NCBI GenBank assembly: GCA_963707025.1
Contig: CAVPOM010000018.1
Coordinates: 160,001 to 224,000 of the forward strand
DNA length: 64,000 bases
Reading direction: 5' to 3'
Source: an uncultured Verrucomicrobiae bacterium
Lineage (GTDB): Bacteria > Verrucomicrobiota > Verrucomicrobiia > Limisphaerales > Palsa-1400
This document shows, piece after piece, positions 17,320 to 29,566 of the stretch. Position numbers and translations under genes: made by a program. Under the pieces are notes generated by a model, which saw nothing but the letters and a program-made list of their open reading frames with translations, was not told the DNA's origin and did not search any database. Every line of letters starts with the position of its first letter. Position 1 is the stretch's first letter.

Positions 17320-18703
17320 TCAGGCGCCCAGTTCGGTTTCGAGCAACCGGGTAATCCGCTGGTTCCAGCGTTGCAGCAGCGGGGCTTTTGGCCCTTCCAG
17401 CAGCAGGCGCACTTTTGGCTCGGTGCCGGAGTAGCGCAGCAAAATCCGGCCGCCGTGGGATTGCAGTTCGGCTTCCGCCCGGCGCAGCAGGGAGGGCAGG
17501 CCGTCCACCTGTTCGAGCGGTTTTTTTTCGCGCACCACAATGTTGGTCAACAATTGCGGGAAGCGCGTCCAGCAGGCCGCCAATTGGGAGAGGGATTTGC
17601 CGCTGGCTTTCATGACGCGCAGGATTTGCAGCGCGGCGATCAAGCCGTCGCCCGTGGTGCTGTAATCGGCAAAGATGATGTGGCCGCTTTGTTCTCCACC
17701 CACGTTGTAATGGTGCCGGAGCATGGCGGCCAGGACATGTTGATCGCCCACCTGGGTGCGCAGCAGCTTGCCGCCGGCCCGCTCAATGACCGCCTGGAGG
17801 CCGGCGTTGCTCATGACGGTGGCGACGACGGTTTTGCCGCGCAAAGTTCCCTGGGCCAGGCATTCCAGACCGATGATGGCCAGCACGTCATCGCCGTCAA
17901 TCAACCGGCCCCGCTCATCGCACAAGATGACGCGGTCGGCGTCGCCGTCGTGGGCCAGGCCGAGGTGGGCCTTGTGTTGGAGGACCCGCTGGCAAAGGTG
18001 TTCCGGGTGCATGGAGCCGCAATCCTGGTTGATGTTGGTCCCGTCGGGTTTGTCGCAATAGACAATGACTTGGGCGCCCAGCTCGCGCAGCACGCAGGGG
18101 GTGGATTTGTAGGCGGCGCCGTGGGCGCAATCCACCACCAGGCGCATGCCCTCCAGGGTCAAATGACGCGGGAAGGAACTTTTGGCGTATTCGATGTAAC
18201 GGCCCAGGGCGTCGTCAATGCGCACGGCCTTGCCGATGGCGTCGGCGGTGGGACGAATGGTGTTGATCTCGCCGCTGAAGACCAGTTTCTCGATGCGCTC
18301 CTCGATGACGTCATCCAGCTTGTAGCCGTCGGCGCGGAAGAATTTGATGCCGTTGTCGGCGTAGGGGTTGTGGGAGGCGGTGATGACAATGCCGGCATCG
18401 GCCCGCAAACTGCGGGTGACGTAAGCGACCCCCGGCGTGGGCAACGGGCCGATGAGCAGCACATCCACGCCCATGGAAAGGACGCCGGAGGAAATGGCGT
18501 TCTCCAGCATGTAGCCGGAAAGAACGGGTGTCCTTGCCGATGAGGATTTTGTGTTTGCCCCGGCCGCGGGCCTGCGTTTCCAGGTTCTTGAAAACGTGGG
18601 CGGCGGCCCGGCCCAGCTTGAGGGCGGTTTCAACGGTGACCGGTTCGATGTTGGCGGTGCCGCGGACCCCGTCGGTTCCAAAAATCTTGGTGGGTTGGCT
18701 CAC
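17320..18703 (-). CDS. glmM: Phosphoglucosamine mutase, with a 1-nt insertion near 18523
   Basis: [10 protein letters not shown]...IGKDTR in one frame and LSGYMLE...ITASHNP, HDGDADR, GGEQSGH, RYSGTEP in another; deleting one base restores GKDTRLSGY. Confidence 0.9.
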
Positions 18704-18716
18704 GGGGGTTGGCCTT

Positions 18717-19133
18717 TCAAGGGAGGGTGGCTTGGACGCTGACGGTGTGGGGTTTGAATTCCAGGACATAGATATTAGTGGGAACGCCCGGATGCAAATC
18801 CTCCTGGGTGGCGGTCGGGGAATGATAATCGGTCAGGTCCACATACACCTTGATTTCCCTGCCTTCCGGCCCGCGCAGTGTTTTGGCCTCGCCCATCACG
18901 GTGACCAGCACGTTGCTCGGAGTGAGGGTGAAGGCGCGGGCATCCCCCTCCTCTTGCAGGATGGAGATGGGCACCGCCAGGACTTGCCGGATGAAATGCT
19001 GGCTGGCCGACGGCTCGCTCAGGGTGAGGTCATGGTCCATGCTGAAATGGACCGCCATCCAAATGATCGTGCCCGAGGCGATGGAAAAAATCTTGAGCCA
19101 GAAATTATGGAAAATGAGGTGGCGCAGGGACAT
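18717..19133 (-). CDS. cdaR: CdaR/YbbR-like single-domain membrane-anchored protein
   Basis: [12 protein letters not shown] anchor, [17 protein letters not shown]; lies between cdaA and glmM. Confidence 0.7.
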
Positions 19134-19135
19134 GG

Positions 19136-19984
19136 CTATTTGTTCTCCACCTTGGCGGGGGCCAGACCGGCCTTGGCCGGTTCGGAGGCGCGGGGTTGCA
19201 GCCACTTCAAAATCCGATGGGGCTTGCCGGGCTGGAGGAGCACGGAGGACAGGAAAGCTCTCAACTGTTCCCCGGTCACGCCCCGCACCAACTGCCCCTT
19301 GTAGGCGTGGGAAATGGAGCCGGTTTCCTCCGACACCACCACCACAACCGCGTCGGTTTGTTCGGACAGCCCGATGGCGGCGCGGTGGCGGGTGCCCAGG
19401 GAGGCGGCCAAATCCTGCCGCTGGCTCAAGGGGAAGATGCAGGCGGCATAGGCAATGCGGTCGCCCTTGATGATGACGCCGCCGTCGTGAATGGCGTTGT
19501 TGGGAAAAAAGATCGTTTCCAGCATCTCCGGGGTGGCTTCGCAATCCACCAGCAGCCCCGACTCGGTGGCTTCCTGCAATTGGATGGATTGCTCGATGGC
19601 GATGAGCGCGCCGATGCGCACGTCGGCCAGGCGCTCGACGGTCTGGATGATGACTTCGATGTTCTCGCGCTGTTCGCGCGTGGCGTTGAAGAGCGGATGG
19701 GTGCCCAGTTCGGCCAGAATGCGGCGCAGTTCCGGCTGGAAAATAATCAGGACGGCGACGGCGGCAAAGGCGACGAAGGAGCGCAGGAGCCAGTTCAACA
19801 CCTCCAGTTGCAACACCTGGGCCAGCAGGGTCAAACTCAGCAGGAGCAGGACAAAGCCGTAAACGACCGGCGCCCCGCGCGTGCCGCGCACAAAGTTGAG
19901 GCTGAAATAAATGGCCACCGAAAGAATGGCAATTTCCAGCACGGGCCGCCAGCCGTCATTTATGTCGTGGAGAATGCTATGCAT
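19136..19984 (-). CDS. cdaA: Diadenylate cyclase CdaA (DAC domain, 3 TM)
   Basis: IIFQPELRRIL, IGALIAIE, IHDGG, GTRHRAAIGLSE, VSEETG. Confidence 0.95.
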   Translation of the reverse strand: MHSILHDINDGWRPVLEIAILSVAIYFSLNFVRGTRGAPVVYGFVLLLLSLTLLAQVLQLEVLNWLLRSFVAFAAVAVLIIFQPELRRILAELGTHPLFNATREQRENIEVIIQTVERLADVRIGALIAIEQSIQLQEATESGLLVDCEATPEMLETIFFPNNAIHDGGVIIKGDRIAYAACIFPLSQRQDLAASLGTRHRAAIGLSEQTDAVVVVVSEETGSISHAYKGQLVRGVTGEQLRAFLSSVLLQPGKPHRILKWLQPRASEPAKAGLAPAKVENK

Positions 19985-20822
19985 CAATTTGCCCTTCCAT
20001 CAGGCAACGGGTCAACTCCACCGCCTGCCGGGTCGCGGCCACGTCATGCGTGCGGATGATCCCCACGCCCTGCTGCGCCGCCCAGCAGGCGCAGGCCAGG
20101 GAGGCCGGCAGCCGCTCCGGCGGGGCGGCCCCGGACATCTGGCCCAGGAACGATTTGCGGGAGGCTCCCAGCAAGAGCGGGCGCTGCCATTTTGTAAAAG
20201 CGCCCAGGTGGGCCAGCAATTGCAAATTATCCTCCCGCCGCTTGCCAAAACCAATCCCCACATCCAGCGCCACCTGCTCGGCCGGCAGGCCGCACCCGGC
20301 CAGCCGGGCCAGGCGTCCGCCAAAAAACTCGTTCACCTCCGCCACCACATTCTTGTAAACAGGATTAAGCTGCATGGTCTCCGGCGTGCCTTGCATGTGC
20401 GTCAGCACATAGCCGGCACCGCTTTGGGCGGCGACGCGCCACATCTCCTCGTCGTCGCGGTTGGCGGCGATGTCATTGACCAGGCTGGCGCCGGCGCGCA
20501 ACGCCGCCCGCGCCACCGCCGGTTTGATCGTATCAATGGAGATGGCAATGGCAAGCTTGCCCGCCAATTGTTCGATCACCGGAATGACCCGCCGCAACTC
20601 CTCCCCTTCCGGCACCGGCCTGGCTCCGGGCCGGGTGGATTCTCCGCCAATGTCAATGAAGTCGGCTCCTTCGCCGGCCAGTTGCAGCGCGCGGGCCACG
20701 GCCCGGTCGGTGGAAAAATACTCCCCGCCGTCGGAAAACGAATCCGGGGTCACATTCACCACACCCATGAGCAGGGCGCGGCCGGGAAAGGCATATTCAA
20801 ATTGGCGGGCGCGCAACAGCAT
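19977..20822 (-). CDS. folP: Dihydropteroate synthase
   Basis: MGVVNVTPDSFSDGG, DIGGESTRPG, GIGFGK, GASRKSF, IRTHDV. Confidence 0.96.
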   Translation of the reverse strand: MLLRARQFEYAFPGRALLMGVVNVTPDSFSDGGEYFSTDRAVARALQLAGEGADFIDIGGESTRPGARPVPEGEELRRVIPVIEQLAGKLAIAISIDTIKPAVARAALRAGASLVNDIAANRDDEEMWRVAAQSGAGYVLTHMQGTPETMQLNPVYKNVVAEVNEFFGGRLARLAGCGLPAEQVALDVGIGFGKRREDNLQLLAHLGAFTKWQRPLLLGASRKSFLGQMSGAAPPERLPASLACACWAAQQGVGIIRTHDVAATRQAVELTRCLMEGQIDA

Positions 20823-21024
20823 TTATCCGGCGCTGCCAACTCGCGCAGGCCGGCATAAACTATGAACCTCCCCGGCGGGCGCTGTCAACGCCCGCGAGAA
20901 AATTACCGGAAAAAAAGCCGCCGGTCATGCGCCAGGGACGCCGGGGAAAGGTGGGGTCCCGGCCAGCCGGGACTGCCCGCCGTCGGGCCTTGGGAGAGGA
21001 ACCGACGTCGCACCACCTTCGTGC

Positions 21025-21058
21025 GGCGGGTCCCGATAATTCGGGACCCGCCCTGCCA
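21025..21058. repeat. REP-like hairpin with GGTCCCGATAATTCGGGACC core (reverse copy at about 59801-59835)
   Basis: About 34 nt shared with one mismatch between the two loci. Confidence 0.7.
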
Positions 21059-21091
21059 CCCGTGACTGGCGCATTACGGCGGCGCGCGGGG

Positions 21092-21721
<630 letters not shown>

Positions 21722-21874
21722 AGTTTTTGCGTGTTAATGTTTAGAGTTCAAATTTCGTTGCCGCATGGGCAATTTCACTGTCAACGACCCTTTAAAAATA
21801 GCAGACCTCCGCCCGAACACAAGCGCGGCGTTTTCGCTCGCGGCCGGAAGCATTTCACTCTGTTGGGCAACCGC

Positions 21875-21964
21875 CTCCTAATCTTAATCTTAATCCTAAT
21901 CTTAATCTCCTTCGGGCAACCGGTTCATGCGGATTAAGATTAGGATTAAGATTAGGATTAGGAG
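21875..21964. repeat. (TAATCY)n hexamer-repeat palindrome, copy 2
   Basis: 33-nt arms 21875-21907 and 21932-21964, 32/33 inverted match. Confidence 0.9.
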
Positions 21965-22060
21965 ACAGAAAGCGCCACCTAAAAAAGTGAAATGCGCCCG
22001 GCCGGCCCGGCCCGGCCACCAGCCGGTCTTGGCCATTACAAAAAAAACCGCATTTTTCCC

Positions 22061-22094
22061 TTGCACTGTTACCCGGTTAGTATTACCGTGGTAA
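22061..22094 (+). promoter_or_regulatory. Promoter and probable BlaI operator
   Basis: TTGCAC at 22061 and palindrome TTACC-GT-GGTAA (22083-22094) just upstream of the repressor ATG. Confidence 0.55.
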
Positions 22095-22099
22095 CTGTT

Positions 22100-22486
22100 A
22101 TGACCAATCCAAGGATCCATCGCCTCGGCGATCTGCAACTCAAAATCATGAAGGCGCTTTGGGACCGCCCCGAAGCCACCGTCTCCCAAGTCCACCAAAC
22201 CGTTTCGCCCGACGGCGGCCTGGCCCACTCCACCATCGCCACCATGCTGCGCAAGATGGAGGGGCGCGGGCTGGTCAAACACCGCCTGCTGGACCGCAAG
22301 TTCCTCTACCGCGCCCTGGTGCGGGAGGAGGTGGTGGCGCGCAAGATGTCCGAGCATTTCATCGAGGGCCTTTTCGAGGGCAGCCTGGCCGACATGGTGG
22401 CCCACCTGCTCCAAACCCGGGACATCAGCCGCCAGGAGTTGGAACGGCTGGAAAAACTCATCGCGGAGCAAAAAAGGAAATTATGA
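22100..22486 (+). CDS. BlaI/MecI/CopY-family transcriptional repressor
   Basis: LGDLQLKIMKALW, LAHSTIATMLRKMEGRGLV, LFEGSLADMVAHL. Confidence 0.92.
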   Translation: MTNPRIHRLGDLQLKIMKALWDRPEATVSQVHQTVSPDGGLAHSTIATMLRKMEGRGLVKHRLLDRKFLYRALVREEVVARKMSEHFIEGLFEGSLADMVAHLLQTRDISRQELERLEKLIAEQKRKL

Positions 22487-25400
22487 TGACGCCGGATTTG
22501 CCTTTTTGGACGCGGCTGCTGGCCCACATCGCGGTGGAGGCGGCTTGCGTGGTGGGGATTGCTTTGCTCCTGGACAGGCTCATTCGCCCGGCGTTTTGGC
22601 GGCGCGCCTTGTGGCAAAGCGCGGCCGTCTGCCTCTTGCTCTTGACCGCCTCCGATCTGAGCGGTTTTGGCCGCGGCCTGGCCTCTTTTGTCTTCGGCCA
22701 CGCGCGCCCGGAACAAAAATTCGCCGTCTGGACCAGCCCCGTGGAAGCCGCGCCAATGCCGCTGCCACCGCCGCCGCGCTCCTTCGCGCCCGCTCCGGCC
22801 GCCGTTACCCTGCCCGTGGTCAAACCTGAAATCGCCCGGCCTGTTTGGTGGCCCGGCCTGCTCTGGCTCGGGGGCGGATTGGCCGTTCTGGGCCGTGTGG
22901 CTGCGGCGCAGATTCTTTTCATTTCGCTTCGCCGCCGCCGGCCCCATCTGGCCCGCGGCGATTTGAACAACCGCGTCGCCGCCATCCTGCAACGGCTGGC
23001 GGTGCGCCGTAAAATCCGCCTGCTCCAGTCTCCGGGCCTGACCGGCCCGATTGCCTTTGGCATACTGCGGCCCAGCGTCGGTCTGCCGGTGGATTTCGCC
23101 GCCAAATTCAGCCGCGCCGAGCAAGACGCCATGCTGGCGCATGAGCTGGCCCATCTGGCGGCGCGCGATCCGCTCTGGTATTTGCTGGCGGACGTGAGCA
23201 GCGCGGCGTTGTGGTGGCATCCGCAGGCCTGGTGGGCGCGCCGACGGCTCCATCGCGCCAGCGAACTGGCCGCCGACGAAGCCGCCGCGATTTTCCCCGA
23301 CGGCCCCGGCGCGCTGGCCCGGTGCCTGGTGAGCTTGGGGAAGCAAATGACCGGGTTTCCCGCCGCGAGCCGGATGGGCGTGGAAGGCGGCGGTTTCCGT
23401 TCCAATCTGGCCGAGCGTGTGCAACGTCTGCTTCGCCTGGCGGACACGGCGCGGCAACCGTCTTATGGCTGGCGCGCCCATGCCGCGAGATTCGGTGTCA
23501 TCATCGCCATTTCCGCCGCCGCCGTTGGGCTGTCCGGCTGTCTGCAAAACCGCGATGCCGTAAAGCAACCGACCTTGCAGGCGAACTTGAGCCAGGCCTG
23601 GGACGCCTCGCCCGCCGCGACCGTCTGGCATTCCGCGCTGCCGGCTGGAAAACCCGAACCTCCCGCGCCAAAAGCGATTACCGCCCTGCCGGTCAAATTT
23701 GAGTTGGGGGTCGTTGCAGCCGGCCAGCCGGGCAGTCCGCCGGTTCCCAACGCTGAGGCCAACGCCAGTCAACTGGGCGCTGGGTATGAGATTACCTTCA
23801 ACTCGCATCCGCGAGTTCGGAACGCCGCCGCTAACACCGATCAGACTGGCACTAGCAATGGCCGCGAGGCCATCGTGCGCAAGCTGCAAAACATCAAATT
23901 GGGCGAAGTGCCGGACGGTTTTGAACAAGGATTACCGCTGAGTGAAGTGCTGAACATCCTGACCAGGCTCGCCATCTCAAAGGACATTGACCACACCGGC
24001 GTCAATTTCCTGTTCAATCCGCGCGTCGGCGGCAACGCGGCAGGGGAACTCGTTGACCCCGGCACCATCACCATAAAAATCACTCCGCCCCTCAGAAACG
24101 TGAACTTGCTGCAAATGTTGGACGCGATCCGCCATACGGCCGACCAGCCTATTGACTTTTCGGTGGCCGATTACGCCGTGTGGTTTTTCGTCAAACCGCC
24201 GGCGAACGCCGCGCTGGAAAGCAGGCTTCAGCCCTTGCTTAATCCCGGTCCCGGCACAAGCCAGGAACGCCAGGCTGTCATGAGCAGACTGCAAGACCTC
24301 ACCATGAAGGAACAGCCGTCCGGTTTTGAACAAGGCCTGCCGTTGAGTGAAGTGCTGAACATCTTGAACAAGCTCTCCATCTCAAAGGACGCTGACCACA
24401 GCGGCGTCAATTTCCTGTTCAATCCGCGCGCCGGCGCCAACGCGGCCGGGGAGCTGGTTGACCCCGGCACCATCACCATAAAAATCACTCCGCCCCTCAA
24501 AAACGTGACCCTGTTGCAACTGTTGGACGCAATTCGCCAAATGGCTGACCAGCCCCTTGACTTTTCGGTGACAGATTACGCCGTGTGGTTTTTCGTCAAA
24601 CCACCGGAGGCCGCGCCGCCGGAAATCAGGACTCAGCCCGTCCCTCTTCCCAGTCCCGCAGCGAAGCAGGGCAATCTCGCGCCGCAGGTAGCGCCCGAAC
24701 CTGCGCTTCCTCCCAATGCGTTGAAGGCGATGCAAACTCCCACCAATGGAGCGGCCACCACGGAGGTCTTCTTGCTCCGATACGCTGATGCCAAGGCCGT
24801 CGCCTCTGCATTGAAGGATGTTTTCAACGCTCCAGACTCCAGACGCGGCGGCGGCGTTGCGGCTGCCGGCGGACGCCCCGGGCGCGCCGCGGCTCGCCTC
24901 AATGCGGTCGCGGATGACAGGAACAACGCCGTCTTGGTCAGCGCCCCTGGAGACTGGATGCCTGGCATCTCCAACATCCTGCTCAAGCTGGATATTCCGC
25001 AAGAAGACACCGTCCAGATCAAACTTTTTAAACTCCGTAGTGCCGATTGCACCGACGTGGCCAACCACCTGCTCGCCCTTTTCCCCGAACCAAAACTCCA
25101 GGCCAACCAGCCGAACCGAAACGGAGGCCGGGGCGCTACTCTCAAGGAGCAAGCCGCCGTCAACGCCGTGCCTGATCCGCGCACCCACTCAGTCCTGGTC
25201 ACCGCTTCAAAAGATACCATGGTCCAAATCACGAGAATCATTGACGAGATGGACAACGAACCGGCCCGGTCTGGGAAGTCATCTTCGCCGGCCGTGAAAG
25301 GTCAAGAGCCGCCTGAGCCAGCTTCGCTGGAAACGCGGATGTTTCATGTCAGCCCCGATATTTTCGTCCGGGGATTGGAAAAAATGTCTCCGCAAATCCC

Positions 25401-26409
25401 TGCCGGACAAAGCAATGCACCCGAAGGAGCCAGAATCGCCGACAGCGGAATCGGCGGCGGCGGGTTGGCTGGCGGAACTGGAGGCATCGGAGGAGGTATT
25501 GGCGCCGGGCTTGGAGGCCCTCCTTTTAGCACCCTCACCAACGCAACGGCTGGTCGCGGCGGAGTTGTAGTTCCGCTTGGAGGCCCTCCTTTTAGCACCC
25601 TCACCAACGCTACAAAGGATAACCTTATGGTGAGCCGCTATTTTACGAGCCTGGGCATTAACCTGACCAATAATGGGGCGTTCGTTTTTTTCAACAACCG
25701 CACTGGCGACATCCTGGTCCGAACCACGGCGCACGATTTGGATGCGGTGGAACGGGTCATCCAACTGCTCAACAAAACCCCGCCCCAAGTCCAGATTGAC
25801 GTCAAGTTCGCCAGCATGCCAGTGGGAGGTTACAAAAGCTTGGGCCAGGACTGGCCGACGACAAACGCCACCCTGCTTACAAACAGCCCCACCATCCTCG
25901 ATTCGTTGAATGACCGGCAGTTCCGCAGCGTCATCAACGCCATTGAACGAAAAAACGGAGCGGATATACTCAGCGCGCCCCGAGTGACAACGGAGAGCGG
26001 GCGAGCGGCGCATATCGCCATCCCAGACATCTTTGCGCCTGGCGACACCAACTATTTCCCGGAGACCGGTCCGACCGTGGACGTTCTTCCCACAGTTTCC
26101 GCGGACGGCTTCTCCATCCAAATGCTAATCATCCCCAGCTCCACGGAATTCGTCGGATATGATAACCCGGTGACGGCGCATTTGCCCGTGCCTCATTACC
26201 GTCTGAGACAGACGGTGATCACGACAAATGTTTTCGATGGCAATACGCTTGTCCTGCGCCCTCTCCCGGCGGAGAACGCCACCAACCAAAACCCGGTGTT
26301 CCTGATCTTCATTACGCCAACGCTCATTGACCCCGCCGGCAACCGCCTCCACACGGCCGAGGAGATGCCCATGGCCCGGCCACAGCCAGTCCCCAACCCT
26401 CCAAAATAG
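22483..26409 (+). CDS. BlaR1/M56 metallopeptidase fused to duplicated N-domains, NolW-like domains and a degenerate secretin domain
   Basis: GPIAFGILRP, LAHELAH, WWHP, ELAADE (M56); FLLRYADA/AVADDRNNAVLV and VPDPRTHSVLV (N3-like); PQVQIDVKF, ILSAPRVTT, GPTVDVLPTV, IFITPTLIDPAG (secretin); ATGA overlap with the repressor. Confidence 0.85.
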   Translation: MMTPDLPFWTRLLAHIAVEAACVVGIALLLDRLIRPAFWRRALWQSAAVCLLLLTASDLSGFGRGLASFVFGHARPEQKFAVWTSPVEAAPMPLPPPPRSFAPAPAAVTLPVVKPEIARPVWWPGLLWLGGGLAVLGRVAAAQILFISLRRRRPHLARGDLNNRVAAILQRLAVRRKIRLLQSPGLTGPIAFGILRPSVGLPVDFAAKFSRAEQDAMLAHELAHLAARDPLWYLLADVSSAALWWHPQAWWARRRLHRASELAADEAAAIFPDGPGALARCLVSLGKQMTGFPAASRMGVEGGGFRSNLAERVQRLLRLADTARQPSYGWRAHAARFGVIIAISAAAVGLSGCLQNRDAVKQPTLQANLSQAWDASPAATVWHSALPAGKPEPPAPKAITALPVKFELGVVAAGQPGSPPVPNAEANASQLGAGYEITFNSHPRVRNAAANTDQTGTSNGREAIVRKLQNIKLGEVPDGFEQGLPLSEVLNILTRLAISKDIDHTGVNFLFNPRVGGNAAGELVDPGTITIKITPPLRNVNLLQMLDAIRHTADQPIDFSVADYAVWFFVKPPANAALESRLQPLLNPGPGTSQERQAVMSRLQDLTMKEQPSGFEQGLPLSEVLNILNKLSISKDADHSGVNFLFNPRAGANAAGELVDPGTITIKITPPLKNVTLLQLLDAIRQMADQPLDFSVTDYAVWFFVKPPEAAPPEIRTQPVPLPSPAAKQGNLAPQVAPEPALPPNALKAMQTPTNGAATTEVFLLRYADAKAVASALKDVFNAPDSRRGGGVAAAGGRPGRAAARLNAVADDRNNAVLVSAPGDWMPGISNILLKLDIPQEDTVQIKLFKLRSADCTDVANHLLALFPEPKLQANQPNRNGGRGATLKEQAAVNAVPDPRTHSVLVTASKDTMVQITRIIDEMDNEPARSGKSSSPAVKGQEPPEPASLETRMFHVSPDIFVRGLEKMSPQIPAGQSNAPEGARIADSGIGGGGLAGGTGGIGGGIGAGLGGPPFSTLTNATAGRGGVVVPLGGPPFSTLTNATKDNLMVSRYFTSLGINLTNNGAFVFFNNRTGDILVRTTAHDLDAVERVIQLLNKTPPQVQIDVKFASMPVGGYKSLGQDWPTTNATLLTNSPTILDSLNDRQFRSVINAIERKNGADILSAPRVTTESGRAAHIAIPDIFAPGDTNYFPETGPTVDVLPTVSADGFSIQMLIIPSSTEFVGYDNPVTAHLPVPHYRLRQTVITTNVFDGNTLVLRPLPAENATNQNPVFLIFITPTLIDPAGNRLHTAEEMPMARPQPVPNPPK

Positions 26410-26418
26410 GGCCGTGGC

Positions 26419-27426
26419 TAGAGCGTTTCCATAAATGATATAGCTTGACTGGGGCGAGAGGGCTGGCAGGCTTGAGCCATGCGAGCGATACCCGTGTCTG
26501 CGCGCGAGCGCATCCTGCAACTCTATGAACAAGGCAAAAGCACCCGCGAGATCGCGGACTTTTTCGGCTTTTGCGTGGCGGCGGTGCGCCGGGTCCGACA
26601 GCAGTTCCAAGAGCGCGGCACGCTCCAGCCGCAAACCCATTTGTGCGGGCGCAAAACGCTGCTGAACGCCGGACGCCAGGCTCGCCTGCAAAAGCTGGTG
26701 GCGGCCCAGCCCGACGCGACGTTGGCCGAGTTGGGGGCGCGTCTGGACCGCCCTTTCGGGACCTCCACTGTGGATTTGTGGCTGCGCAAACTGGGGTTGA
26801 GCTATAAAAAAAACGCTCTGCGCCGCCGAGCAGAACCGTCCGGACGTGGCCGAAAAGCGGGCCCATTGGCATGAGCGTCTGGCAAGTGACCCACCTGCCC
26901 GACTGGTCTTCGTGGATGAAAGCGGGGCCAACACCAAGATGACCCGTTTTTGCGGGCGGTCACCCGTGGGCCGAAGACTGGCGGCCCACGTCCCGCAGGG
27001 ACATTATCAGACCACCACCCTGGTCTGCGCCATTCGTCTGGCCGGGCCTGCGGCCCCCTGCCTCTTTGAGGGGGCCATGGACGGGGAAATGTTTTTGGCC
27101 TGGATCCAGCAGGGGCTGGTGGTGGAGTTGCGCAAGGGTGACTTGGTCATCATGGACAACTTGGCCACGCATAAGGTGACCGGAGTCCGCCAAGCCATCG
27201 AAGAGGCCGGGGCAACGCTGCTGTATCTGCCGCCCTATTCGCCAGACTTTAATCCCATCGAAAATATGTGGAGCAAGGTCAAACAAATTATGCGAGGTCT
27301 CGCGCCGCGAACCGCCAAGGAACTGCTCCAAGCGGCGAAGATTGCCTTTGAAGCCATCTCCACCGCCGATTGCCGGGGCTTCTTTTTAAACGCCCGCTAC
27401 GCTACATGATTTATGGAAATGCTCTA
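26419..27426 (+). mobile_element. IS630-family insertion sequence (complete, coordinates include flanking TA)
   Basis: TAGAGCGTTTCCATAAAT / ATTTATGGAAATGCTCTA, 17/18 inverted, TA at both ends. Confidence 0.92.
26479..27409 (+). CDS. IS630 transposase, split at an A8 run (26806-26813) into HTH and DDE frames
   Basis: OrfA HTH ending SYKK; OrfB KKTLCAAEQNRPDV...FVDESG, IMDNLATHK, YLPPYSPDFNPIE. Confidence 0.92.
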
Positions 27427-27485
27427 ATCCAATTGTTGTAGTGTCGGCGCTGCGCGCCGATTTCCGCAATTTCCGTATTTTCCCT

Positions 27486-27514
27486 TTGACAAAGCCGCCC
27501 TTAAAGCCTAATCT
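27486..27514 (+). promoter_or_regulatory. sigma70-type promoter
   Basis: TTGACA-17 nt-TAATCT. Confidence 0.55.
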
Positions 27515-27521
27515 TCCCTAC

Positions 27522-27770
27522 GTGAAAAGGGCGGTCAATATGGAGTCGGTGAGCTTCAGTCCCGCGTTTGGATCGGGGACGATTCCATACATAACCAATT
27601 CACTGTACTTTGAGGTTCCCGGCGCATTTCCTGTCCTCCGCAGCTTTCAGCGAAGGAAGATGAGCCTTTTTGCGGCAAATAAACTCAAGTGCCTTTCCAT
27701 GAACCATTTACACGCCAAAATGAGTTTTCCGGGTCAAACCAAGTCAAACCTGGTCAAGGTAGTTTTTTGA
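27522..27770 (+). CDS. Possible leaderless small hypothetical protein (82 aa)
   Basis: GTG at the expected transcription start of the promoter above; atypical codon usage, no recognised motif. Confidence 0.25.
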   Translation: MKRAVNMESVSFSPAFGSGTIPYITNSLYFEVPGAFPVLRSFQRRKMSLFAANKLKCLSMNHLHAKMSFPGQTKSNLVKVVF

Positions 27771-27834
27771 ACCTCCGTGCCCATCTTTCCATCGCTCCAA
27801 TACATAACCATTTCACTTATGTATTAGCCAAAGA

Positions 27835-27993
27835 GAACCACAGATGAACGCGGATGAGCACCGGTTCAGCGGCACAGAACAGCGGGTTTCTCCGGACGCT
27901 TTCCGGCCACAGGTCGCTGGTGCCAGCTTCACACAGAAAAAAGCACATTATCGCCCCGCCCCATCCGTGTCTATCCGTGTCCATCGGTGGTTC
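27835..27993. repeat. Palindromic element with ~10-nt periodic arms
   Basis: GAACCACAGATGAACGCGGATGAGCAC... and ...ATCCGTGTCTATCCGTGTCCATCGGTGGTTC. Confidence 0.75.
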
Positions 27994-28028
27994 CTATTGC
28001 ATTTTTCCGGCTCAGTCTTTAGCCAATC

Positions 28029-28111
28029 CCCAGGTAGGGACGCCGTCCCGATTCGGAATCGGGATCCGGGTCGGCGCAGCGCGCCGACCCTCCCAAAAAT
28101 CCAGATGCGCC
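28029..28111. repeat. GTAG-type REP element with micro-palindrome insert (sister of 15741-15822)
   Basis: GGTAGGGACGCCGTCCCGATTCGGAATCGGGAT...GTCGGCGCAGCGCGCCGACCCTCCCAAAAATCCAGATGCGCC. Confidence 0.7.
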
Positions 28112-28198
28112 AACTCAAGACTCTCCCAATTTGGGATTGCGTAACTTGGCCGTCTGGATAAACTGGCCGAACCCAAAAGCCATGAGGACTATCAATTT

Positions 28199-29566
28199 AT
28201 GAACGATGCCATCAATCGCCGCCTGTTTTTGAAGAAGGCCGGAACCGCGGGCCTCGGCCTCAGCGTGGCCGGTTATTTCGCCTCGTCGTCCGACAGTTGG
28301 GCGCAGACGCCCCCCGCCACGGGACGCACCCTCGGGCCGAACGACAAAATCACCGCCGCGGTCATCGGCACCAACGGCCGGGGCCTGGCCCATGTGGATT
28401 GCCTCCTCGCCCTGAAAGGTGTGGAAATCTCCCATATTTGCGACGTGGACGACCGCGCCATCGCCAAGGGCATCAAGGCCGCCGCCAAAGGGCAGCAGAC
28501 CGCGCCGAAAGGCGCCAAGGATTTTCGGAAGCTGCTGGAAGACAAAACCATTGACGCTGTCACCATCGCCACTCCCGACCACTGGCACGCGCCCATGGCC
28601 ATCCTGGCGCTGCAGGCCGGCAAGCATGTCTATGTGGAAAAGCCGTGCAGCCACAACCCGCGCGAGGGGGAATGGCTGGTCGAGGCGGCGGCGAAAAGCA
28701 AGGGCCTCTGCCAGATGGGCAGCCAGCGCCGCTCCTTTCCCAACACCCAGGCCGCCGTCAAGGCCATTCGCGAGGGGATGATCGGCAAGGCCTACATGGG
28801 CCGTTGCTGGTATGTCAACGACCGCAAATCCATCGGCCACGGCAAGCCGGTGGCGGTGCCGGAGTGGCTCGACTATGAATTGTGGCAGGGTCCCGCCTTG
28901 CGCCGCCCTTACATGAGCAACCTCATTCACTACAACTGGCACTGGTTTTGGAATTACGGCACCGGTGAGGCCCTTAACAACGGCACCCACGAAGTGGATG
29001 TCTGCCGCTGGGCCTTGGGCCTGGATTTTCCCGCCCGCGTCACCTCAAACGGCGGCCGTTATGCTTTTCAGGACGACTGGGAAACGCCCGACACCCAGGT
29101 CATCAGTTGGGATTTCGCGGCGGGCAAAACCATGACGTGGGAAGGCCACAGTTGCAACAACCACCCCATTGAAGGGCTGGAACGCGGCGTCATCATCTAC
29201 GGCACCGGCGGCTGGGCATTGCTCGAAGGCGACAATTGCAAAATTGTGGACAACTCCCGCAAGACGCTTCTCCAGCTCAAAAGCGGCGTGGTGGCCGATC
29301 CCACCAACACCATCAGCGCCACCGGCGCCGACATGGACACCCTCCATTTCAAAAACTTTGTGGACGCCATCCGCCTGGGCACGCCGCTGACCGCCCCGGT
29401 CAGCGAAGGCCACAAGAGCGTGGCCATGCTGCAACTGGGCAACATCGCCTGGCGCACCGGCCGCGCCCTCGATCTGGACAGCAGCAACGGCCACATCAAG
29501 AACGATGCCGAAGCCGCGAAATTGTGGGGGCGCGACTACGCGCCCGGTTGGGAGCCGAAGGTTTGA
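28199..29566 (+). CDS. Tat-exported Gfo/Idh/MocA oxidoreductase
   Basis: NRRLFLK Tat motif; IGTNGRG, ATPDHWH, YVEKP. Confidence 0.92.
   Translation: MNDAINRRLFLKKAGTAGLGLSVAGYFASSSDSWAQTPPATGRTLGPNDKITAAVIGTNGRGLAHVDCLLALKGVEISHICDVDDRAIAKGIKAAAKGQQTAPKGAKDFRKLLEDKTIDAVTIATPDHWHAPMAILALQAGKHVYVEKPCSHNPREGEWLVEAAAKSKGLCQMGSQRRSFPNTQAAVKAIREGMIGKAYMGRCWYVNDRKSIGHGKPVAVPEWLDYELWQGPALRRPYMSNLIHYNWHWFWNYGTGEALNNGTHEVDVCRWALGLDFPARVTSNGGRYAFQDDWETPDTQVISWDFAAGKTMTWEGHSCNNHPIEGLERGVIIYGTGGWALLEGDNCKIVDNSRKTLLQLKSGVVADPTNTISATGADMDTLHFKNFVDAIRLGTPLTAPVSEGHKSVAMLQLGNIAWRTGRALDLDSSNGHIKNDAEAAKLWGRDYAPGWEPKV

What the first reader, a model, noticed from the sequence alone, without database searches (positions are those of the whole stretch)
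22061..26409. BlaI repressor plus a BlaR1/M56 protease fused to a degenerate secretin: candidate trans-envelope sensor
Seen: operator-like palindrome, blaI-type repressor and a translationally coupled 1308-aa protein with intact HELAH zinc motif. Where BlaR1 has its penicillin-binding sensor, this protein has two N0-like domains, NolW/N3-like domains and a secretin beta domain. The secretin resembles verrucomicrobial PilQ/GspD-type proteins (TEFVGYD, ITPTLIDPAGNR) but lacks the usual GGL...P.LG.IP..G.LF segment. Known: M56 proteases cleave BlaI on sensing, and secretins are outer-membrane multimers. Inference: a one-component system that monitors secretin or pilus assembly or envelope state, perhaps by joining native secretin rings, and derepresses a BlaI regulon. 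I know of no characterised example.
Basis: partly seen in the sequence, partly recalled or inferred. Interest (0 to 1): 0.8.

Follow-up and report, generated by a model that had tools for sequence, protein, structure and literature searches.

The report
Self-regulated protease carrying trimmed secretin decoy
A two-gene repressor and membrane-protease switch of the penicillin-sensor type carries, in place of its antibiotic sensor, trimmed copies of the cell's own pilus and secretion channel proteins, and likely uses them as a decoy subunit that detects and then mops up unassembled channel protein.

Summary
Confirmed and real. blaI (22100-22486) overlaps a 1308-aa M56 protease with intact zinc and autocleavage motifs. 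Its periplasmic arm is a mosaic of this genome's own secretins: two N0/STN domains, N3 and the barrel core from the Amuc_1098-type PilQ, plus two ring domains from a split GspD. All core strands are kept; lip, gate loops and membrane-docking AHL are cut, so it probably cannot enter the outer membrane. The design is common in one verrucomicrobial order; this scan found it before on other DNA (8 notes), and I found no paper. Added here: (1) fused secretin parts are not one clade (AU p about 1e-86) but nest with their lineage's PilQ, i.e. were re-copied repeatedly; (2) the tandem 14-bp operator occurs only at its own promoter, so no wider regulon is seen; (3) sister genes carry a conserved internal ribosome-binding site, ATG and signal peptide after the last membrane helix, so the secretin piece is likely also made free; this gene has a lipobox there instead. 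Best reading (0.45): a self-amplifying secretin decoy, sensor and output in one. Binding is untested. New variant of BlaI/BlaR1.

The parts
22061..22066 (+). -35-like hexamer TTGCAC (TTGACN or TTTACA in relatives), 1 nt before the operator
   Evidence: alignment of 23 promoters; the simple sigma-70 scan found no full promoter
22068..22095 (.). Tandem operator: two adjacent 14-bp palindromic boxes, consensus AYTACY-NN-RGTART; first box degenerate, second near-perfect; 4 nt before the blaI ATG, no Shine-Dalgarno
22100..22486 (+). blaI, BlaI/MecI/CopY-family repressor, 128 aa
   Evidence: PF03965 E 1e-28; MecI 1okr E 4e-10
22483..23547 (+). M56 membrane zinc protease, aa 1-355: H220-E221-x-x-H224, D229, E261-x-x-x-D265, predicted autocleavage site G304/F305, R312, last membrane helix aa 337-355
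   Evidence: BlaR1 residues from PMC9834060 (passages)
23530..23541 (+). Lipobox-like LSGC (C353) at the end of the last membrane helix; processing is a hypothesis
   Evidence: 18 of 19 members of this clade match the motif, Cys 19 of 19, but neighbouring residues are as conserved
23575..23637 (+). Conserved juxtamembrane segment (W373 in 55 of 68), the counterpart of the internal signal peptide of sister genes; no Met or Shine-Dalgarno here
23851..24612 (+). Two tandem N0/STN domains (aa 457-575, 592-710), 83% identical in DNA, copied from the resident PilQ
24751..25257 (+). Two Secretin_N ring domains copied from the N-domain protein of the genome's split GspD (G000:C6:475436-477139), 71-84% DNA identity
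25327..25782 (+). N3 ring domain with Gly-rich insertion, from resident PilQ (78% DNA identity over 161 nt)
25783..26409 (+). Trimmed secretin beta-sandwich: all core strands, lip 14/90 aa, gate 1 12/45, gate 2 20/38, AHL 8/33; C-terminal IDPAGNR tail
26419..27426 (+). IS630-type element inserted 9 bp after the stop codon; not part of the system
   Evidence: empty sites in two runs (table 5c)

Best explanation
A self-regulated BlaI-M56 switch whose periplasmic arm is a trimmed copy of the host's own secretins, likely acting as a decoy subunit that binds unassembled or misplaced PilQ/GspD and, once triggered, makes more of itself. Steps: (1) shown: repressor, tandem operator, intact protease motifs, arm composition and origin. 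(2) By family knowledge: BlaI dimers bind the two boxes; the protease autocleaves at G304/F305 and cuts BlaI when active. (3) Inferred: the ring-forming parts (N0, N3-type domains, barrel edge strands) pair with native secretin protomers in the periplasm or at the inner membrane; lacking AHL and lip the arm would not insert or form a pore; engagement or clustering pulls on TM4 and activates the protease. (4) Inferred: since no other target of BlaI is seen, the output is the fusion itself; its arm may be released (lipobox here, SPase I-like sites or an internal start plus signal peptide in relatives) and cap or titrate secretin subunits, a quality-control loop or a brake on pilus assembly.
For: Arm is secretin-derived in 21 of 24 genes found with the M56 domain alone as query; of the other three one is frameshifted with a core behind, one IS-broken, one cut by a contig end. 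Fused domains fall into at least 5 groups among stand-alone PilQs; one clade rejected, p-AU 9.7e-87 (25 fused, 22 stand-alone rows, long branches left out), while the M56 domains form one clade (98 SH-aLRT). Between G000 and G017 dS is 0.25 in M56, 0.3 in N0, 0.78 in the core: recombined. N3 is closer to the own PilQ than to the mean of other genera in 9 of 9 pairs (4 pairs are one genus). Deletions are element-precise: none of the eight core-strand segments falls under 60% length in any of 58 fusions, whereas AHL does in 37, gate 1 in 35, lip in 34, gate 2 in 17, against 0 of 39 PilQs; different replacements in different clades. dN/dS against own PilQ 0.25-0.46. AHL and lip are the membrane-entering parts, N3 the ring foundation (passages of PMC6532946, PMC6155069). 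Operator pair only at own promoter. Internal GGAG-5/8nt-ATG plus signal peptide in 11 of 13 loci that have a Met-started signal-like segment; the Gly codon is GGA in all 11, against 11-37% background. Precedent for like-binds-like: PupR STN with PupB signalling domain (PMC7186176 passages).
Against: No binding, expression or cleavage data. Re-copying from pilQ is also what homology-driven recombination does without selection; dS to the own PilQ is about 1, so copies are old, and the own PilQ is the best or tied-best match in only 6 of 9 genomes. Constraint is weaker than on PilQ (0.08-0.26), and the GspD-derived piece is near neutral between G000 and G018 (0.82). No module is universal: 12 of 68 lack the core, 7 family genes have the core only, 17 of 58 keep the AHL. 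Relatives also carry SecDF-head, ExbD, SLBB or LysM domains, and one Pirellulales gene has the same cassette with no secretin module (L006). This gene has no internal start; its lipobox is weak evidence (W-to-C is one base; flanks equally conserved), and in BlaR1 signal-peptidase cleavage after the last helix serves turnover, not output (PMC9834060). A regulon of weak single boxes cannot be excluded; the genome is 88% complete.
Confidence: 0.45

Rival explanations
1. Bait for outside agents: the arm imitates PilQ to catch something that targets the secretin or passes through it (phage entry or pilus-blocking proteins, bacteriocins, or the pilus partners), and induction floods the periplasm with bait.
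For: Fast, mosaic evolution of the arm beside a slow M56 and BlaI (92% and 95% identity to G017, core 52%); patchy presence, 19 of 30 other family genomes; no conserved neighbours; free exported form in relatives.
Against: No dN/dS above 1. The parts lost (lip, gates) are those facing outside and the lumen; the parts kept are subunit contacts. No phage evidence was collected.
Confidence: 0.18
2. Generic passenger cassette: BlaI-M56 picks up envelope-gene pieces by recombination; the secretin pieces act only as folded spacers or as a self-oligomerising scaffold for the protease, and do not read PilQ.
For: 254 M56 architectures in InterPro, TonB_C second most common (10.64898/2026.04.08.717257, section 12); other passengers in this subfamily; relaxed constraint; interchangeable module sets; the other BlaI loci of this genome carry unrelated C-termini.
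Against: 21 of 24 unbiased hits carry secretin modules; at least 5 separate recruitments; N3 tracks own PilQ in 9 of 9; deletions remove the same functional elements each time.
Confidence: 0.22
3. One reading: the arm spans the periplasm and takes a place in the assembled outer-membrane secretin ring, passing pilus or gate movements to the protease.
For: Five N-type domains plus Pro-rich linkers make this arm long enough in principle (inference); 17 of 58 relatives keep the AHL; N0/STN fold is the signalling fold of TonB-dependent transducers.
Against: This protein lacks AHL, lip and gates, so a ring holding it would have a gap in the membrane belt; 7 relatives have only a short linker and core; no wider regulon to act on.
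Confidence: 0.12
4. Assembly artefact or decaying chimera without function.
For: No public contig spans the whole gene; some relatives are broken (G015 frameshifts, G027 IS, G009 stop); IS630 next to the stop.
Against: Same fusion in one ORF in dozens of independent assemblies; syntenic in G017; dN/dS 0.24 in M56; operator conserved in 23 loci; IS lies after the stop.
Confidence: 0.03

Closest known systems
BlaI-BlaR1 / MecI-MecR1 (Staphylococcus aureus; BlaR1 structures 8EXP-8EXT)
   Same: Repressor plus M56 membrane protease; HExxH, D+5, ExxxD, autocleavage Phe (66 of 68), conserved Arg; TAC-N4-GTA type boxes over the promoter; extracytoplasmic C-terminal arm after the last helix, with a signal-peptidase-type site.
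   Different: No penicillin-binding domain; no beta-lactamase or PBP target seen; arm is a variable mosaic of host secretin copies; far below the blaR1 equivalog cut-off (48.8 vs 400 bits).
Non-canonical BlaIR systems: C. difficile CenIR, P. aeruginosa PvmSR, mycobacterial BlaIR; M56-TonB_C fusions of Bacteroides
   Same: BlaI with an M56 lacking the beta-lactam sensor; envelope-protein domains fused to M56 (TonB_C, plug, M23); signal unknown.
   Different: None is reported with secretin domains in the passages read; CenIR has a regulon of about 12 genes; none is reported with an internal start.
Cell-surface signalling (PupB-PupR, FecA-FecR)
   Same: Inner-membrane regulator whose periplasmic STN domain has the same fold as the domain it binds on an outer-membrane protein; output by proteolysis. 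The two N0 repeats match PupR STN (Z 7.8).
   Different: No sigma/anti-sigma pair or TonB-dependent transducer; protease is in the sensor; partner would be a secretin.
Amuc_1098-family PilQ of the verrucomicrobial Amuc_1098-1101 pilus operon, and GspD secretins
   Same: Donor of N0, N3 and core: best NCBIfam hit for both the arm and the resident secretin; fold matches PilQ, GspD, InvG, pIV.
   Different: No own signal peptide, AHL, lip or full gates; tethered to a protease; evolves faster.
Phage-shock protein (Psp) response (recalled, not looked up)
   Same: Would address the same problem: secretin subunits misplaced at the inner membrane.
   Different: No homology; Psp senses membrane damage, this would sense the secretin itself.

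Membership tests
Peptidase M56 (BlaR1-like) sensor-transducer | PF05569 above cut-off | tested here: met
   88.6 bits vs 31
Peptidase M56 (BlaR1-like) sensor-transducer | HExxH, Asp five residues after the second His, ExxxD | tested here: met
   H220/E221/H224 in 68 of 68, D229 in 67 of 68; E261-D265 read
Peptidase M56 (BlaR1-like) sensor-transducer | Autocleavage loop with P1' Phe before the last helices | tested here: met
   F305 in 66 of 68; equivalence to BlaR1 F284 is by position, outside the aligned stretch
Peptidase M56 (BlaR1-like) sensor-transducer | Adjacent BlaI repressor with operator over the promoter | tested here: met
   blaI in 49 of 52 loci, the 3 misses being loci cut short or second genes of a pair; operator
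Peptidase M56 (BlaR1-like) sensor-transducer | Cleaves BlaI on a signal | not testable with these tools
   needs a cleavage assay
BlaR1/MecR1 proper (beta-lactam sensor) | C-terminal penicillin-binding domain; NF000326 cut-off | tested here: not met
   no transpeptidase hit; 48.8 vs 400 bits
BlaR1/MecR1 proper (beta-lactam sensor) | Linked beta-lactamase or PBP under the same operator | tested here: not met
   neighbours are sod, IS630, oxidoreductase; operator pair only at own promoter
Secretin (functional outer-membrane channel) | N3 plus beta-sandwich fold | tested here: met
Secretin (functional outer-membrane channel) | Amphipathic helical loop and beta-lip | tested here: not met
   8 of 33 and 14 of 90 residues left; element names assigned from recalled secretin topology and sequence order, not by superposition
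Secretin (functional outer-membrane channel) | PF00263 above cut-off | tested here: inconclusive
   23.9 vs 27.5 bits; 31.8 with neighbours summed
Secretin (functional outer-membrane channel) | Forms 12-15-mer rings | not testable with these tools
   complex prediction unavailable
Cell-surface signalling (anti-sigma/TBDT) | STN-fold domain on an inner-membrane regulator | tested here: met
   (Z 7.8-8.6, shared with secretin N0 and phage hub domains)
Cell-surface signalling (anti-sigma/TBDT) | ECF sigma, anti-sigma domain and linked TonB-dependent transducer | tested here: not met
   none in the protein or its neighbours
Lipoprotein (SPase II substrate) | Lipobox Cys after a hydrophobic helix near a free N-terminus | tested here: inconclusive
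   motif present and conserved in the clade, but internal and no more conserved than its flanks

The most novel reading that the evidence does not exclude
An inducible secretin inhibitor in which sensor and effector are one gene: the cell keeps re-copying its own pilQ into a BlaI-repressed protease, strips the membrane-entering parts, and makes the product in two forms, a tethered sensor and a free exported decoy (internal start in some lineages, lipoprotein or SPase I release in others) that caps secretin rings and shuts pilus or secretion channels under stress or phage attack.
Probability: 0.25. Interest if true: 0.82.

Novelty: new variant of a known kind. Interest (0 to 1): 0.58.

Why it matters
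About 94% of M56 'BlaR-like' proteins have no beta-lactam sensor and their signals are unknown (CenIR preprint). This family offers a readable rule: the sensor arm is a copy of a resident envelope machine, trimmed of its membrane-entering parts and refreshed as that machine evolves. It gives direct tests of how cells watch secretin assembly outside the Psp response, shows by natural deletions which secretin parts are separable (core, N3, gates, AHL), and the internal start suggests that BlaI-M56 cassettes without a regulon have their output hidden inside the protease gene.

Tried and rejected
Regulon search: exact 12-mer 3 sites vs 1.2 expected; PWM 43 sites at >=12 bits vs 31-241 in 20 controls; the best other site lies inside a response-regulator ORF, two more (C14:281892, C5:521554) are single intergenic boxes at chance level; none among the listed top 40 sites lies at the pilM or gspD operons. 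Link to the divergent sod gene: seen in G017 only, not in 3 other same-genus loci. Truncation by IS630: rejected. Internal start in this gene: none (no ATG or GGAG; two TTG codons without Shine-Dalgarno). Foldseek on the N0 model found nothing. Rfam: no match 20000-29000. Sigma-70 scan: no full promoter. Sequencing runs: no RNA holder listed; contigs cover pieces only. Phylum sample: 0 of 300 genomes with the M56 subfamily at E<=1e-25 (not found in those searched). ESM Atlas gave only generic secretin clusters. Literature: searches listed no paper on an M56-secretin fusion (listings only, except papers cited as passages); one search gave no precedent for dominant-negative secretin fragments; in PMC5646246 the dominant-negative agent is a nanobody on N0. 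Subscription journals and bioRxiv supplements (CenIR architecture table) were not seen. First tree lost rows to a bad cut and was redone; 18 rows lacking the end motif were dropped; one search used 47 of 97 rows.


Full report
OBSERVATION. The finding is in the sequence as described. A 128-aa BlaI (22100-22486; PF03965 E 1e-28) overlaps by ATGA a 1308-aa ORF (22483-26409) with Peptidase_M56, two Secretin_N and a weak Secretin hit. Source names of the closest proteins are Verrucomicrobiota. An IS630 element sits 9 bp after the stop; empty sites exist in two runs, so it does not cut the gene.

PROTEASE AND REPRESSOR. Among 68 related M56 proteins (query included), H220, E221, H224, L309 and R312 are invariant, D229 is in 67 and F305 in 66. 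In S. aureus BlaR1 autocleavage is at S283/F284, the enzyme cuts BlaI directly, and signal peptidase sheds the sensor for turnover (PMC9834060, passages); I infer G304/F305 as the equivalent. Hydropathy shows helices at aa 12-30, 129-147 and 337-355, so by analogy the rest is periplasmic. In the own genome (88% complete) the pair occurs once; single boxes are fewer than in 18 of 20 shuffled controls. So the only visible target is the operon itself. Neighbours differ between same-genus genomes: it is a two-gene cassette.

THE ARM. It is a mosaic of the genome's own secretins. Two N0 repeats, N3 and the core match the secretin at G000:C14:148267-151311 (65-78% DNA identity), which is Amuc_1098-like and lies in an operon with Amuc_1101/PilM and Amuc_1100 homologues. 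The two Secretin_N domains match the N-domain protein of a split GspD at C6 (71-84%). Models confirm the folds: secretin for aa 941-1308, N0/STN for aa 457-710 (Foldseek alone found nothing). Against 39 stand-alone PilQs, 58 fused domains keep every core-strand segment but shorten the AHL in 37, gate 1 in 35, lip in 34, gate 2 in 17 (under 60% length; 0 of 39 PilQs); 17 of 58 keep an intact AHL. The query has lost all four. AHL and lip are the parts that enter the outer membrane and N3 is the ring foundation (PMC6532946, PMC6155069, passages). Element names rest on recalled topology and sequence order.

DISTRIBUTION AND HISTORY. With the M56 domain alone as query, 19 of 30 other family genomes match; 21 of the 24 genes carry secretin modules, one more has a frameshifted core, two are cut. 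A relative as query hit 49 of 251 genomes of the order; 0 of 300 in a phylum sample. Module sets vary widely: N3 in 64, core in 56, N0 in 46, PilQ TPR in 26, GspD-type domains in 4 of 68 (biased, as the query held these parts); some add SecDF-head, ExbD, SLBB or LysM. The M56 domains form one clade, but the fused secretin domains do not: at least 5 label changes are forced by well-supported branches and monophyly is rejected (p-AU 9.7e-87; 47 of 97 rows, long branches removed; same picture with all 97). The query's genus nests with its own PilQs (100/100). dS between G000 and G017 is 0.25 (M56), 0.3 (N0) and 0.78 (core), so parts were swapped. N3 is closer to the own PilQ than to other genera in 9 of 9 pairs; other elements are mixed, and the own PilQ is best or tied in 6 of 9. 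dN/dS of core against own PilQ is 0.25-0.46, above PilQ itself (0.08-0.26); one GspD-derived comparison is 0.82. Constraint is real but relaxed, and homology-driven recombination alone could give the nesting.

A HIDDEN SECOND START IN RELATIVES. After the last helix, 9 of 68 proteins read K/Y-G-D/E/N-x-M-K followed by a signal-peptide-like stretch. In DNA, 13 of about 50 loci examined have such a Met-started segment; 11 have GGAG 5 or 8 nt before the ATG, with the Gly codon GGA in all 11, against 11-37% of Gly codons in those reading frames and about 2 of 37 other G-D/E pairs in nine of them. Most belong to one M56 branch, so this is few events, though L006 is a Pirellulales record with an unrelated passenger. 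I infer a second, exported product holding the passenger alone. In the Verrucomicrobiota cases the passenger is N0 or N0-N3 without core. The query lacks this start; its segment has lost hydrophobicity, and its clade has L-S/A/T-G-C at the helix end (18 of 19), a sister clade A-x-A/G-Q (15 of 68 by a loose pattern), and two distant loci LPGC. The lipobox is weak evidence alone.

MECHANISM. Best reading (0.45): the arm is a decoy secretin subunit. It keeps surfaces that pair with neighbours and drops those that insert, gate or face out; arm lengths down to a bare core near the inner membrane point to targets in the periplasm or inner membrane, i.e. unassembled or misplaced PilQ/GspD. Binding would activate the protease, cut BlaI and raise the decoy itself, tethered or released. 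Shown: composition, origin, trimming, operator, lack of other operator pairs, internal start signals in relatives. Inferred: binding, activation, release, capping. Rivals: generic passenger or self-scaffold (0.22), bait for phage or toxins (0.18), true trans-envelope ring member (0.12; likelier for the AHL-keeping relatives), artefact (0.03).

KNOWN CONTEXT. It is an M56/BlaI system, not BlaR1 proper and not a functional secretin. A 2026 preprint counts 254 M56 architectures, only about 6% with a beta-lactam sensor, and does not mention secretin in its main text (10.64898/2026.04.08.717257, abstract, passages and section 12). M56-TonB fusions are noted but uncharacterised (10.1101/2023.07.07.548152, passages); PvmSR lacks a sensor domain (10.64898/2026.08.03.742534, passages); PMC7593790 reviews BlaR1 (passages). 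It works most like cell-surface signalling, where a regulator's STN mirrors its partner's domain (PMC7186176, passages). Searches found no paper on the fusion. This scan noted the fusion in 8 other findings; none matched the words for an internal start.

VERDICT. Real, widespread in one order, unstudied; a new variant of BlaI/BlaR1. Interest 0.58: the architecture is no longer unique within the scan and the function is untested, but repeated re-copying from the host secretin, the self-only regulon and the hidden second start make a specific, testable model.

Noticed in passing
G000:C6:474169-477139 (L034); L102-L105: The T2SS secretin GspD is split into two adjacent genes, an N0-N1-N2-N3-type protein and a secretin-domain protein, each with a signal-peptide-like start in G000; the same two-ORF split in 4 of 4 other genomes checked, from 4 genera.
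   Followed up: partly
L006, L072-L074, L076, L078, L080, L082, L083, L085, L086: Conserved internal Shine-Dalgarno, ATG and signal peptide inside M56 genes just after the last membrane helix; may be a general feature of BlaI-M56 cassettes.
   Followed up: partly
G000:C9:324496-328313, C4:130984-132938, C6:648638-651462, C7:330041-330445: Four more BlaI genes; C9 and C4 have M56 partners with unrelated C-termini and their own paired palindromes over a TTGAC; the C4 M56 runs into foreign sequence; C6 precedes a 714-aa exported-looking protein with no M56 hit; C7 has no M56.
   Followed up: no
window 26419-27426: IS630-type element with two overlapping ORFs (frameshift type), TA ends; near-identical copies in public runs.
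   Followed up: yes
G108:C108:43442-47843 and G072:C124:11448-15001: Two M56 fusion genes in tandem.
   Followed up: no
P0010, P0052, P0099, P0102: Relatives with two trimmed secretin cores in tandem (P0010, P0052), and distant M56 proteins outside the clade, one named Symmachiella dynata, that also carry secretin pieces.
   Followed up: partly
window 25509-25613: A 39-nt direct repeat (GGPPFSTLTNAT twice) inside the Gly-rich insertion of N3.
   Followed up: no
window 17320-21721: glmM-cdaR-like-cdaA-folP cluster and a divergent Fe/Mn sod gene upstream; syntenic in G017 only.
   Followed up: partly
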